A DNA stretch of 36,025 nt, taken from IMG/VR virus record IMGVR_UViG_2522572021_000002, positions 1 to 36,025 of that record, one strand, 5' to 3'. Position 1 is the stretch's first letter, and every line of letters begins with the position of its first letter. Shown one piece after another: positions 3,001 through 6,000 of this stretch. This stretch comes from a virus (lineage: Duplodnaviria; Heunggongvirae; Uroviricota; Caudoviricetes). A program made the position numbers.

Positions 3001-6000
3001 CATCATCGTTGGTCGTGACCGACTGGCACGTCTTCGTAAGGAGCTAAGGCTACGCTGTAAGCAGAAACGCAAGTTCAGAGCGACTACGAACTCGAACCAC
3101 AATCTGCCAGTTGCGCCAAATCTGCTGAACCAGACGTTCGCTCCTACAGCACCAAATCAGGTCTGGGTGGCGGACCTGACGTATGTTGCCACACAGGAGG
3201 GATGGTTGTACCTCGCTGGCATCAAAGATGTTTATACGTGCGAAATTGTCGGCTACGCCATGGGAGAGCGCATGACAAAAGAGCTGACAGGTAAAGCTCT
3301 GTTTATGGCGCTCAGGAGCCAGCGCCCACCTGCCGGGCTAATCCACCACTCTGATCGAGGTTCACAGTACTGCGCATACGATTACCGGGTCATACAGGAG
3401 CAGTTTGGTCTGAAAACATCAATGTCGCGTAAAGGTAACTGTTACGACAACGCTCCGATGGAAAGCTTCTGGGGAACGCTGAAAAATGAGAGCCTGAGCC
3501 ACTATCGTTTTAATAACCGGGATGAAGCCATCTCAGTAATACGGGAATACATTGAGATTTTCTACAATCGTCAGCGTCGTCACTCTCGTCTGGGGAATAT
3601 CTCCCCGGCAGCCTTCAGGGAAAAATATCATCAGATGGCTGCTTAAAAAAAGAACAAATGGTAGTGTCCGCTATTGCCAGTACACCTCAATCCATTGTTT
3701 CTTATATAAAGGTTAGGGGGTAAATCCCGGCGCTCATGACTTCGCCTTCTTCCCATTTCTGATCCTCTTCAAAAGGCTACCTGTTACTGGTCGATTTAAG
3801 TCAACCTTTACCGCTGATTCGTGGAACAGATACTCTCTTCCATCCTTAACCGGAGGAGGGAATATCCTGCATTCGCGCACCCATCGACGAACTGTTTCAA
3901 GGCTTCTTGGGCGTCGCTGGCGTGCGTTCCACTCCTGAAGTGTCAAGTACATCGCAAAGTCTCCGCAATTACACGCAAGAAAAAGCCGCCATCAGGCGGC
4001 TTGGTGTTCTTTCAGTTCTTCAATTCGAATATTGGTTATGTCTGCATGTGCTATCTGCGCCCATATCATCCAGTGGTCATAGCAGTCATTGATGTTCTCT
4101 GCTTCGATAACTCTGTTGAATGGTTCTCCATTCCATTCACCTGTGACTCGGAAGTGCATTTATCATCTCCATAAAACAAAACCCGCCGTAGCGAGTTCAG
4201 ATAAAAGAAATCCTCGTCAGTGCGAGGATGAACCGCCCCGGGAATCCTGGAGACTAAACTTCCTGAGAAAGAGGTAAACAGGATGACTAAAAATACTCGT
4301 TTTTCCCCTGAAGTCCGTCAACGGGCAGTCCGTATGGTTCTGGAAAGTCAGGGCGAATATGACTCACAATGGGCGACAATTTGTTCCATTGCTCCAAAGA
4401 TTGGCTGTACGCCGGAGACTCTGCGTGTCTGGGTTCGCCAGCATGAGCGGGATACCGGGGGCGGTGATGGAGGGCTCACCACCGCTGAACGTCAGCGTCT
4501 GAAAGAGCTGGAGCGTGAAAATCGTGAACTGCGCCGCAGTAACGATATCCTTCGCCAGGCTTCCGCTTATTTTGCGAAGGCGGAGTTCGACCGCCTCTGG
4601 AAAAAATGATGCCACTGCTGGATAAGCTGCGTGAGCAGTACGGGGTCGGACCGCTATGCAGCGAACTGCATATTGCCCCGTCAACGTATTACCACTGTCA
4701 GCAACAGCGACATCATCCGGATAAACGCAGTGCCCGTGCGCAGCGCGATGACTGGCTGAAGAAAGAGATACAGCGCGTATACGATGAAAATCACAAGGTA
4801 TACGGTGTGCGTAAAGTCTGGCGTCAGTTGTTACGGGAAGGTATCAGAGTGGCCAGATGCACTGTGGCACGTCTCATGGCGGTTATGGGACTTGCCGGTG
4901 TTCTCCGGGGTAAAAAGGTCCGTACGACCATCAGCCGGAAAGCCGTTGCCGCAGGCGACCGCGTAAACCGTCAGTTCGTGGCAGAACGACCTGACCAGCT
5001 GTGGGTGGCTGATTTTACTTACGTCAGCACATGGCAGGGCTTCGTCTATGTGGCGTTCATCATTGATGTGTTTGCCGGATACATTGTGGGGTGGCGGGTC
5101 TCATCGTCCATGGAGACGACATTCGTGCTGGATGCACTGGAGCAGGCGTTATGGGCCCGTCGACCGTCCGGCACGGTCCATCACAGTGATAAAGGTTCTC
5201 AGTATGTATCGCTGGCCTACACACAGCGGCTTAAGGAAGCCGGATTACTGGCATCAACAGGAAGTACAGGCGACTCGTATGACAACGCGATGGCGGAGAG
5301 CATCAATGGTCTTTACAAAGCGGAGGTAATACACCGTAAGAGCTGGAAAAACCGTGCAGAAGTGGAACTGGCCACACTCACGTGGGTGGACTGGTATAAC
5401 AATCGACGATTGCTGGAAAGGCTGGGCCATACTCCTCCGGCAGAAGCAGAAAAAGCTTATTATGCTTCCATCGGAAACGATGATCTGGCAGCCTGAGTTC
5501 ACAGATAAAACACTCTCCAGGATTCCCGGGGCGGTTCAGCTGATCACATGCGCTTTTGATATCGCCCTGGTTTATTTTGCGAAGAAGCGTCGATGTTCTG
5601 AAATTGCCAGCGCCCACGTTGTAAACGAACGAGTAAAGAGCGCCGCGCGTTGTTTCCGGTATATCGACGTTGATGTACGGGTTAATTTGTCTGGCGACCG
5701 TGGCAAGGTCTTTATTCAGGAGGGCTTTGCATTCTGCTTCGGTATACGTTTTACCGGGCATGATGTCTTTTCCGGTGTGTCCGTGACATACAGTCCATAC
5801 GCCAACGATATCTTTGTATGGTATGTAGCTGACACCTTCCAGACCATCGTTACCACCTGGACCAGTGATGAGCACAGACGCTATGGCAACAGCCCCACCA
5901 CCAATAGCAGCTGCAACAGCCTTGCGTAATGACGGCGACATTATTCACCTCTCGCAGCCTTACGCTTATCTTCTTTAATCTTGAAATAAAGATTTGTCAG

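What the first reader, a model, noticed from the sequence alone, without database searches (positions are those of the whole stretch)
3992..4240. Immunity and replication region deleted at the IS629 copy 1 junction
After xis and a 55-aa ORF, the prophage runs straight into IS629 copy 1. Once the inversion is mentally undone, the other side of that IS is a ren gene lacking only its first ~6 codons (17612-17884). Everything lambda carries between these points (exo/bet/gam, N, cI, cro, cII, O, P) is missing, and the IS629 flanks here (GGA and ATT) are not a target duplication. This fits an IS-associated deletion and means the prophage has no repressor or replication module.
Basis: partly seen in the sequence, partly recalled or inferred. 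Interest (0 to 1): 0.45.

Follow-up and report, generated by a model that had tools for sequence, protein, structure and literature searches.

The report
IS629-bounded deletion in a decayed prophage
A lambda-like prophage in E. coli O145:H28 has lost its whole repressor, recombination and replication region, with one IS629 copy left at the scar; this is real but is ordinary prophage decay of a kind already known in EHEC.

Summary
The window is E. coli O145:H28 RM12581/RM13514, with a prophage at the lambda att site (ybhC/ybhB).

- **The junction.** xis (3734-3952) and lambda orf55 (3992-4159) are followed by IS629 at 4229. Its partner flank, once the inversion between the two IS629 copies is undone, is ren lacking exactly 6 codons.
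- **The flanks.** They are GGA and ATT, so there is no target duplication. The other IS629 copy regains a clean AGC/AGC duplication.
- **What is missing.** The gap equals lambda 29355-40297 (10.9 kb). No ea8.5, exo, bet, gam, N, cI, cro, cII, O or P homologue remains anywhere in the prophage.
- **Not an artefact.** Seventeen other complete O145:H28 genomes carry the un-inverted layout with both junctions, and no reciprocal junctions exist.
- **An undeleted allele exists.** RM13516/RM12761 keep the full early region at the same site, with an identical IS629 inside gene O that is itself missing 613 bp of O, including ori.

The deletion most likely spread outward from that resident IS629. This mechanism is inferred, not shown. 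The O157 Sakai counterpart, Sp3, independently lacks the same modules and is non-inducible. The finding is correct but ordinary.

The parts
1419..2425 (-). 3' part of the lambda-type integrase gene, cut off from its 5' end by IS600
   Evidence: tblastn to lambda Int at 96% identity. DNA is collinear with the intact int of RM9872 up to position 2425. PGAP annotation agrees.
2426..3689 (+). IS600 (1264 bp) inserted in int, with a 3-bp target duplication ATC (2423-2425 and 3690-3692). Present only in RM12581/RM13514.
   Evidence: Gap in the alignment to RM9872, flanks, annotation. Only 2 of 5,426 genomes cover at least 80% of window 1-8000.
3690..3756 (-). 5' remnant of int (arm-binding domain)
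   Evidence: Annotation as an incomplete Arm DNA-binding domain protein. tblastn to Int residues 1-25.
3734..3952 (-). xis (excisionase), intact
   Evidence: 98.6% identical to lambda Xis. Pfam Exc, E=3.9e-41.
3992..4159 (-). 55-aa ORF, homologue of lambda orf55 (lambdap35), intact
   Evidence: 98% identical to lambda orf55. Same protein accession in O157, RM9872 and RM13516.
4211..4228 (.). Hairpin TCCTCG/CGAGGA that ends at the left deletion breakpoint (4228|4229). Intact relatives continue here with TGCTGTTCATTGC...
   Evidence: Direct reading. Comparison with O157 strain 4276, phage 2B8, RM13516 and lambda.
4229..5538 (+). IS629 copy 1 (1310 bp). Its left end carries the deletion junction with the orf55 side. 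Its right end now abuts the lysozyme 5' fragment because of the inversion.
   Evidence: Inverted repeat pair. orfA has HTH_Tnp_1 and orfB has rve, and both match NCBIfam IS3. Flanks.
5539..17884 (.). 12,346-bp segment inverted by recombination between the two IS629 copies. It holds lysozyme 5', holin, Q, lpxR and the nin genes through to ren'.
   Evidence: The un-inverted order is found in RM9872 and 16 other genomes.
17612..17884 (-). ren remnant encoding lambda Ren residues 7-96, with no native start codon. The right deletion breakpoint is 17884|17885.
   Evidence: PGAP calls it 'protein ren'.
17885..19194 (-). IS629 copy 2. Its right end (canonical IRR, GGAAACC) carries the deletion junction with ren. 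Its left end abuts the lysozyme 3' fragment.
19195..19292 (+). Lysozyme 3' fragment. Together with 5539-5941 (-) it gives the AGC/AGC target duplication of the second IS629.
   Evidence: RM9872 reads ...GATCAGC[IS]AGCTACGG.

Best explanation
**What it is.** This is a true deletion that happened after lysogeny, in a lambda-like prophage at attB-lambda of E. coli O145:H28. This prophage is the counterpart of O157 Sakai Sp3.

- About 9.6-10.9 kb is gone, from just past the hairpin downstream of orf55 to codon 7 of ren.
- The lost functions are ea8.5-like genes, exo/bet/gam, kil, cIII, N, pL, cI, pR, cro, cII, O with ori, and P.
- One intact IS629 sits at the scar.
- The event is old. It is shared by the main O145:H28 clade, and it predates both the IS600 hit in int and the 12.3-kb IS629-IS629 inversion seen only in the RM12581/RM13514 outbreak clone.

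**Most likely mechanism (inferred).**
1. The ancestral prophage carried an IS629 inside gene O, at the TAG site, as RM13516 still does.
2. Deletions anchored on the two ends of that resident copy then removed DNA outward, 8,264 bp to the left and 772 bp to the right of the RM13516 state. The IS stayed in place.
3. Such deletions are attributed to IS629 transposase acting with the IS-excision enhancer IEE.

**Consequence (inferred from lambda biology).** The element has no repressor, early promoters, N, origin or replication proteins. With int also broken, it cannot be induced, excise or replicate by itself. It persists as a fixed carrier of lpxR, nleH, cif and espJ.

The deletion itself is about 0.97 certain. 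The confidence given below refers to the end-anchored mechanism.
For: **Deletion shown**
- Flanks abut intact IS629 ends without a target duplication, whereas the second IS629 has one.
- The breakpoints map to lambda 29354 and 40298.
- No early-gene homologue is left in the prophage.
- Both junctions occur in the same 19 complete genomes.
- No reciprocal junctions were found.

**Undeleted allele**
- RM13516/RM12761 carry orf55-...-exo-bet-gam-kil-cIII-N-cI-cro-cII-O'::IS629::'O-P-ren-ninB at the same site.
- That allele is 100% identical to the window up to the left breakpoint and 99.87% identical from the ren breakpoint onward.
- It is 99.7% identical to Sakai Sp3 over the 3.5 kb that Sp3 still keeps.

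**Mechanism**
- The IS629 in O of RM13516 is 100% identical to the junction IS of RM9872 and has the same orientation.
- It lacks a target duplication itself (TTAG[IS]GCCAGC) and 613 bp of O is missing. O157:H7 F6294 has an IS at the very same site with a clean TAG duplication. So an IS-retaining one-sided deletion already occurred in this prophage.
- In FWSEC0002 an IS629 right end is joined to ren 8 nt further in. That breakpoint cannot come from IS-IS homologous recombination.
- iee is reported present in RM13514 (PMC5567499).
- IEE-dependent events are reported to give deletions from a few nt to more than 40 kb adjacent to the IS (PMC9943667).

**Consequence**
- Sakai Sp3 lacks a repressor and replication functions. 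It showed no circularisation, replication or packaging (PMC2669165).
Against: - **No intermediate allele.** No genome with one old and one new junction was found among 5,426 complete genomes. The order and number of events are therefore unknown.
- **IS identity is weakly informative.** IS629 copies in this lineage are nearly identical to each other.
- **The two alleles are not a clean pair.** RM13516 differs from the deleted allele in parts of the nin and lysis regions. Recombination has acted on these prophages, so the O::IS629 copy could be an independent insertion at a hot spot. F6294 shows that the site is reused.
- **The chemistry is debated.** The route to IS-retaining adjacent deletions in copy-out-paste-in elements is not settled (bioRxiv 10.1101/2023.06.07.543989).
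- **Inducibility was not tested here.**
Confidence: 0.55

Rival explanations
1. Two separate IS629 copies inserted in direct orientation, one at the GGA site after orf55 and one at the ATT site in ren. RecA-dependent recombination between them then removed everything between, plus one IS copy.
For: - This gives exactly the observed result: one IS with mismatched flanks, each flank collinear with the intact sequence.
- The same prophage shows that IS629 copies do recombine, as in the 12.3-kb inversion.
- Strain CEA106S carries three IS629 copies inside the early region of a related prophage at the same att site, two of them direct, so the substrate is realistic.
- IS629-type elements recur in or near ren and O in many lineages.
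Against: - It needs two extra insertions at the exact breakpoints, and no genome with either single insertion was found.
- It does not use the IS629 already present in O in the sister allele.
- It cannot explain the 613-bp loss in O in RM13516 or the +8-nt ren junction in FWSEC0002, which point to end-anchored deletion in this lineage.
Confidence: 0.35
2. Nothing was lost. The early region was moved elsewhere by an IS629-mediated rearrangement, or the junction is a misassembly across identical 1.3-kb repeats.
For: - The genome holds many IS629 copies (124 ISs in RM13514, with IS629 the most prevalent; PMC3893438).
- An IS629-mediated inversion is present right here.
- RM12581 and RM13514 come from one outbreak and one laboratory.
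Against: - Both junctions are identical in 19 independent complete assemblies from several laboratories, 17 of them without the inversion.
- Queries joining an IS629 end to the DNA that should follow each breakpoint found no contiguous match in any O145:H28 genome.
Confidence: 0.02
3. The deleted form is ancestral, and RM13516 regained its early region by recombination with an incoming lambdoid phage. On this view RM13516 says nothing about how the deletion arose.
For: The two alleles differ by block replacements in the nin and lysis regions, which shows recombination with other phages. Prophage replacement is described as common in O145:H28 (PMC7067040).
Against: - The early-left region of RM13516 is 99.7% identical to the part retained by O157 Sp3 at the same chromosomal site. 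This argues for vertical descent of that DNA.
- The flanks are identical up to both breakpoints.
- Even if true, the deletion inference is unchanged, because lambda, 2B8 and Sp3 give the same breakpoints.
Confidence: 0.08

Closest known systems
Prophage Sp3 of E. coli O157:H7 Sakai (CP-933K of EDL933; the CP-933K equivalence is from memory)
   Same: - It occupies the same chromosomal site, between ybhC and ybhB.
- Int, Xis and orf55 proteins have the same accessions (Int compared with the un-inverted O145:H28 strain RM9872, because int is split by IS600 in the window), and so do Q and LpxR.
- The nin-Q region is 98.7% identical.
- It carries T3SS effector cargo, including nleH.
- It lacks a repressor and replication genes, and was shown experimentally not to circularise, replicate or be packaged (PMC2669165).
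   Different: - The deletion is independent, joining a truncated bet to ninE with no IS at the scar.
- Sp3 keeps 3.3 kb of early-left genes that are lost here. It lacks ren, ninB and the methyltransferase gene that are kept here.
- Its head and tail modules differ, and Sp3 still has a tail module.
IS629-associated genomic deletions in EHEC, and IEE (IS-excision enhancer)-dependent deletions next to IS3-family elements (Kusumoto et al. 2011 and Ooka et al. 2009, as cited in PMC9943667)
   Same: - The element is the same, IS629.
- The host group carries iee (PMC5567499).
- Deletions start at an IS end and reach from a few nt to tens of kb.
- The target duplication is lost.
   Different: - Here the IS is retained with both ends intact and both flanks altered.
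- The involvement of IEE or transposase is inferred, not shown.
- The original papers could not be read here. Ooka et al. 2009 is not held; a look-up of Kusumoto et al. 2011 was not attempted.
The undeleted allele of the same prophage in O145:H28 RM13516/RM12761
   Same: - It is the same prophage at the same site.
- The flanks are identical up to both breakpoints.
- It holds an identical IS629 copy in the same orientation.
   Different: - It keeps the whole early region.
- Its IS629 lies inside gene O, with 613 bp of O including the ori iterons missing. It is therefore also replication-defective, but it still has cI, cro, N and P.
Cryptic lambdoid prophages of E. coli K-12 such as DLP12, Rac and Qin (from general knowledge)
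   Same: These are lambdoid prophages fixed in the chromosome after losing modules needed for induction and replication. IS elements often lie at the scars.
   Different: They have different integration sites, gene content and deletion end points. They were not compared here.

Membership tests
IS629 (IS3 family insertion sequence) | Length of about 1310 bp with terminal inverted repeats beginning TG and ending CA | tested here: met
   Both copies are 1310 nt. The ends read TGAACCGCCCCGGG...CCCGGGGCGGTTCA.
IS629 (IS3 family insertion sequence) | Two overlapping ORFs, orfA with an HTH domain and orfB with a DDE/rve domain, joined by a programmed -1 frameshift | tested here: met
   orfA at 4283-4609 matches HTH_Tnp_1. 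orfB at 4606-5496 matches rve, HTH_21 and NCBIfam transpos_IS3 (315.7 bits, cut-off 160). PGAP annotates a programmed frameshift and the AL1L pseudoknot.
IS629 (IS3 family insertion sequence) | A 3-4-bp target-site duplication at a simple insertion | tested here: not met
   The deletion-junction copy has GGA versus ATT, which is the evidence for a rearrangement. The other copy has AGC/AGC. Related copies have ATC, ATGC, GGG and TAG.
IS629 (IS3 family insertion sequence) | Near-identity to the IS629 reference sequence rather than to the IS1203 isoform | tested here: inconclusive
   No ISfinder reference was available. The copy is 96% identical to the O157 copies that PGAP names IS1203 family, and identical over the 691 nt that remain of a truncated copy that PGAP names IS629 family.
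Lambda-like (lambdoid) prophage at attB-lambda | Lambda-type int-xis next to the chromosomal ybhC/ybhB-bioA junction | tested here: met
   Int is 96% and Xis 98.6% identical to lambda. The prophage lies between ybhC and ybhB/bioA.
Lambda-like (lambdoid) prophage at attB-lambda | Lambda gene order: int-xis-...-exo-bet-gam-N-cI-cro-cII-O-P-ren-nin-Q-lysis-head-tail | tested here: not met
   - Only int', xis, orf55 | ren', ninB-ninG, Q, lysis genes and head genes remain.
- The interval from ea8.5 to P is absent.
- The tail module is absent apart from a C-terminal tail tip (J-like) fragment.
- The full order is present in the RM13516 allele.
IS-end-anchored ('adjacent') deletion, transposase/IEE-dependent | The IS is retained with intact ends, the target duplication is lost, and the flanks are collinear with an intact reference up to the IS ends | tested here: met
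IS-end-anchored ('adjacent') deletion, transposase/IEE-dependent | A progenitor IS at a fixed position, with nested deletions extending from it | tested here: inconclusive
   RM13516 has an identical IS629 in O, with a 613-bp one-sided loss. No allele with one old and one new junction was found.
IS-end-anchored ('adjacent') deletion, transposase/IEE-dependent | The iee gene is present and active in the host | not tested
   Presence in RM13514 and RM13516 is taken from PMC5567499. It was not checked in the genome here, and activity cannot be tested with these tools.
Defective (non-inducible) prophage | No repressor, early promoters, origin or replication genes | tested here: met
   Annotation and tblastn over the whole prophage. 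The only regulators left are Q and a Rha-family protein.
Defective (non-inducible) prophage | No excision, replication or particle formation after SOS induction | not testable with these tools
   Shown only for the O157 counterpart Sp3 (PMC2669165).

The most novel reading that the evidence does not exclude
The loss of the immunity and replication block from effector-carrying prophages at attB-lambda may be convergent and IS629-driven, rather than random decay.

- At least three lineages lost the same functional block with different end points. These are O157 Sp3 (bet'|ninE), the main O145:H28 clade (orf55|IS629|ren') and the pig UTME strains (orf55'|IS629|ren').
- O and ren look like recurrent IS629 targets. 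The same TAG site in O is used in both O145:H28 and O157:H7.
- If so, IS629, perhaps with IEE, would act as a repeatable route that locks T3SS effector cargo into the chromosome.
Probability: 0.25. Interest if true: 0.35.

Novelty: already known. Interest (0 to 1): 0.18.

Why it matters
The finding explains why this prophage is a fixed, non-mobile carrier of nleH, cif, espJ and lpxR in O145:H28. It cannot be induced, excise or replicate by itself.

O145 genomes offer a natural series of alleles:
1. RM13516, with IS629 in O and 613 bp of O missing.
2. The main clade, with the full early-region deletion.
3. The lettuce-outbreak clone, with an added inversion and IS600 in int.
4. FWSEC0002, with further loss reaching into chromosomal genes.

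This series is a compact illustration of stepwise, IS629-anchored prophage decay. The junctions could also serve as clade markers. None of it changes current understanding, because IS629-driven deletions and defective EHEC prophages are well documented.

Tried and rejected
- **Misassembly or translocation.** Two chimeric queries, each joining an IS629 end to the DNA expected beyond a breakpoint, found only two-piece matches in unrelated strains and none in O145:H28. Rejected.
- **Search for an intermediate allele.** Four junction queries against 5,426 complete E. coli genomes found none.
- **IS sequence differences as a recombination marker.**
  - The two window copies differ only at IS positions 1295-1296.
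  - The junction copy is identical to the O::IS629 copy.
  - This was uninformative for crossover mapping and only weakly informative for descent.
- **Literature.**
  - The three O145:H28 genome and comparative-genomics papers whose text was searched (PMC3893438, PMC7067040, PMC9144400) do not mention this deletion or the 12-kb inversion. PMC5567499 was searched only for IS629/iee terms.
  - Ooka et al. 2009 (PMC2765283) is not held.
- **Family searches.** Pfam and NCBIfam give no family for the ren remnant or orf55. Their identity rests on about 98% identity to the lambda proteins.
- **Module exchange instead of deletion.** Considered and rejected, because both flanks end exactly at intact IS629 termini.
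Full report
**Source and setting.** The window is identical to E. coli O145:H28 RM12581 and RM13514, at chromosome positions 837,137-873,161. These are isolates from the 2010 romaine lettuce outbreak. The window covers ybhC and most of a lambda-like prophage that sits between ybhC and ybhB/bioA, which is the lambda attachment site.

**Checking the observation.**
- xis lies at 3734-3952 on the minus strand. It is 98.6% identical to lambda Xis and matches Pfam Exc.
- The 55-aa ORF lies at 3992-4159 on the minus strand. It is 98% identical to lambda orf55.
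- A 69-nt spacer follows and ends in a perfect 6-bp hairpin at 4211-4228.
- IS629 starts at 4229. A second copy lies inverted at 17885-19194. Each copy is 1310 nt, and they differ only at IS positions 1295-1296.
- The flanks read GGA[copy 1]GCT and AAT[copy 2]AGC.
- Undoing a recombination between the two copies gives AGC[IS]AGC. That is a normal 3-bp duplication, located inside the lysozyme gene. It also gives GGA[IS]ATT, which has no duplication.
- The DNA on the ATT side translates to lambda Ren residues 7-96, so exactly six codons are missing.
- On the lambda map the breakpoints are 29354 and 40298. The interval between them is 10,943 bp in lambda and 9,778 bp in phage 2B8.

**What is missing.** I ran tblastn with 41 early-region proteins against the whole prophage. 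They came from lambda, phage 2B8 and strain CEA106S, so three different immunity types were covered. Only int (split), xis, orf55, Ren 7-96 and NinB gave matches. The RefSeq annotation lists no repressor, Cro, N, O or P. The only regulators left are Q and a Rha-family protein.

**The un-inverted form exists in nature.** After computational un-inversion, the window is collinear with strain RM9872. Identity is 100% over 2,425 bp and 99.99% over 21,849 bp. The only structural difference is a 1264-bp IS600 inserted in int, with a target duplication ATC. Queries across the two deletion junctions each found the same 19 complete genomes with a perfect contiguous match. All that carry a serotype label in their record are O145 or O145:H28. 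Seventeen of them have the un-inverted layout. Only RM12581 and RM13514 carry the inversion and the IS600. The deletion is therefore older than the inversion and fixed in a large O145:H28 clade.

**Not a misassembly or a translocation.** I built two chimeric queries, each joining an IS629 end to the DNA that should follow a breakpoint in an intact phage. They found only two-piece matches in unrelated strains. No O145:H28 genome was among them.

**An undeleted allele.**
- O145:H28 RM13516 and RM12761, from the Belgian ice-cream outbreak, carry the same prophage at the same site with the complete early region.
- The gene order there is orf55, several small genes, exo, bet, gam (frameshifted), kil, cIII, N, a LexA-family repressor, cro, cII, O, P, full-length ren and ninB.
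- This allele is 100% identical to the window up to the left breakpoint and 99.87% identical from the ren breakpoint onward.
- Its early-left part is 99.7% identical to the 3.5 kb that O157 Sakai Sp3 retains at the same site. This argues for descent rather than re-acquisition.
- Relative to RM13516, the window's allele lacks 8,264 bp to the left and 772 bp to the right of an IS629.

**A lead on the mechanism.**
- In RM13516 an IS629 lies inside gene O. It has the same orientation as the junction IS of RM9872 and is 100% identical to it.
- This copy also lacks a target duplication (TTAG[IS]GCCAGC). The 613 bp of O that include the ori iterons are missing.
- O157:H7 strain F6294 has an IS629/IS1203 at exactly the same position, with a clean TAG duplication and an otherwise continuous O gene.
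- RM13516 therefore looks like an insertion followed by a one-sided deletion in which the IS was retained.
- A further case is O145:NM FWSEC0002. There the right end of a truncated IS629 in ybhH is joined to ren 8 nt beyond the usual junction. That end point cannot arise from IS-IS homologous recombination.
- The literature reports iee in RM13514 and RM13516 (PMC5567499).
- It also reports that IEE- and transposase-dependent events give deletions from a few nt to more than 40 kb next to the IS (PMC9943667).

My preferred model is that the ancestral prophage carried O::IS629, and that end-anchored deletions spread outward from this resident copy to the orf55 hairpin on one side and to ren codon 7 on the other. 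This is inference.

**Limits of the mechanism.**
- No allele with one old and one new junction was found.
- IS identity is weak evidence, because copies in this lineage are almost identical.
- The TAG site in O is evidently reusable.
- The chemistry of IS-retaining deletions in copy-out-paste-in elements is itself debated.
- The main rival is recombination between two direct IS629 copies inserted at the two breakpoints.
  - In its favour, strain CEA106S carries three IS629 copies in the same region of a related prophage.
  - Against it, the model needs more events.
  - It also leaves the RM13516 and FWSEC0002 junctions unexplained.

**Consequences (inferred).**
- The prophage has lost pL, pR, N, cI, cro, ori, O and P, so it can neither be derepressed nor replicate.
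- In this strain int is also split by IS600.
- The lysozyme gene is split by IS629.
- The tail module is reduced to a C-terminal tail tip (J-like) fragment.
- The large terminase carries a 1-nt frameshift.
- The inversion places Q and its downstream holin on the opposite strand from the remaining late genes. Q-dependent transcription can therefore no longer reach the head, tail-fibre and effector genes.
- The element is best seen as a fixed island carrying lpxR, nleH, cif and espJ.

**Comparison with what is known.**
- The closest counterpart is Sakai Sp3, at the same site and with the same Xis, orf55, Q and LpxR proteins; its Int matches the intact Int of the un-inverted O145:H28 strain RM9872.
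- Sp3 was scored as lacking a repressor and replication functions. It showed no circularisation, replication or packaging after mitomycin C (PMC2669165).
- Its deletion is independent, joining a truncated bet to ninE with no IS at the scar.
- The pig isolates UTME-9, -10, -12 and -14 show a third independent case at the same att site. There an IS629 without a duplication sits between a truncated orf55 and a differently truncated ren.
- IS629-associated deletions and defective EHEC prophages are established knowledge.
- The O145:H28 genome papers I searched for it do not mention this particular scar. It adds an instance, not a new kind.

**Verdict.** Novelty is 'already known' as a kind, and interest is low (0.18). 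The only mildly novel reading is that loss of the immunity and replication block at this locus is convergent and IS629-driven, with O and ren as preferred targets.

Noticed in passing
window 2426-3689: IS600 (1264 bp) is inserted in the integrase gene with a 3-bp duplication ATC. Among 5,426 complete E. coli genomes, only RM12581 and RM13514 have it.
   Followed up: partly
window 5539-17884: A 12.3-kb inversion lies between the two inverted IS629 copies and is seen only in the RM12581/RM13514 outbreak clone. It puts Q, holin and the lysozyme 5' fragment on the opposite strand from Rz, the terminase and head genes, nleH and cif. It is not mentioned among the inversions described in PMC3893438, and it rests on two assemblies of one clone.
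   Followed up: partly
window 5523-5524 (IS629 positions 1295-1296): The right inverted repeat of the lysozyme-associated IS629 reads GGATTCC, whereas the ren-associated copy reads GGAAACC. This makes the right repeat match the left repeat at these positions. Any effect on transposition is unknown.
   Followed up: no
L011 8493|8494 (RM13516) and L012 3150|3151 (O157:H7 F6294): IS629-type elements sit at exactly the same TAG site in the lambda-type O gene in two serotypes, and the two copies are only 96% identical to each other. Many other genomes have IS3-family elements within O, or within or near ren. This may be an insertion hot spot near ori.
   Followed up: partly
L006 6064-7373 (pig strain UTME-9; also UTME-10, -12, -14): This is an independent IS629 without a target duplication (ATTCACC[IS]CGCGGC). 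It lies between a truncated orf55 and a ren lacking about 107 nt, in a different lambdoid prophage at the same att site. The same functional block has been lost again.
   Followed up: partly
L005 8460-9150 (O145:NM FWSEC0002): A truncated IS629 in ybhH is fused to ren 8 nt beyond the usual junction. The fusion removes the 3' part of ybhH, ybhI, ybhJ, ybhC, int, xis and orf55. A second IS of a different subtype (94.8% identical) joins ninF to the lysozyme 3' fragment 4 nt beyond the usual junction.
   Followed up: partly
L002 14758-15448 (RM9872, gene ybhH): An IS629 fragment holding only positions 620-1310 is still flanked by GTC on both sides. The element appears to have lost its left 619 nt exactly from its own end inward.
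   Followed up: no
window 28474-29299: The head gene FI is followed almost directly by a C-terminal fragment annotated as phage tail tip protein (J-like), then lom and the tail-fibre genes. The whole tail-shaft and tape-measure module is absent. RM13516 shares this.
   Followed up: no
window 23596: One base (C) is missing relative to RM9872, which frameshifts the large terminase gene. It could be a real mutation or a homopolymer sequencing error in the 2014 assemblies.
   Followed up: partly
window 4228|4229: Homology between lambda and the Sp3/2B8-type phages ends at exactly the base where the deletion breakpoint lies, right after the hairpin. The IS629 end therefore coincides with a mosaic module boundary. 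In addition, the native next two bases (TG) equal the first two bases of IS629, so the junction is ambiguous by 2 nt.
   Followed up: no
window 30762-31083: Collagen-like Gly-X-Y coding repeats (GGNNNNNNN periodicity) occur inside the tail-fibre gene. They were picked up as a six-copy direct-repeat family.
   Followed up: no
L003 26795-28104 (strain CEA106S): A related prophage at the same att site holds three IS629 copies in its early region, in orf55, gam and cII. The cII copy lacks a target duplication, which hints at a further rearrangement there.
   Followed up: no
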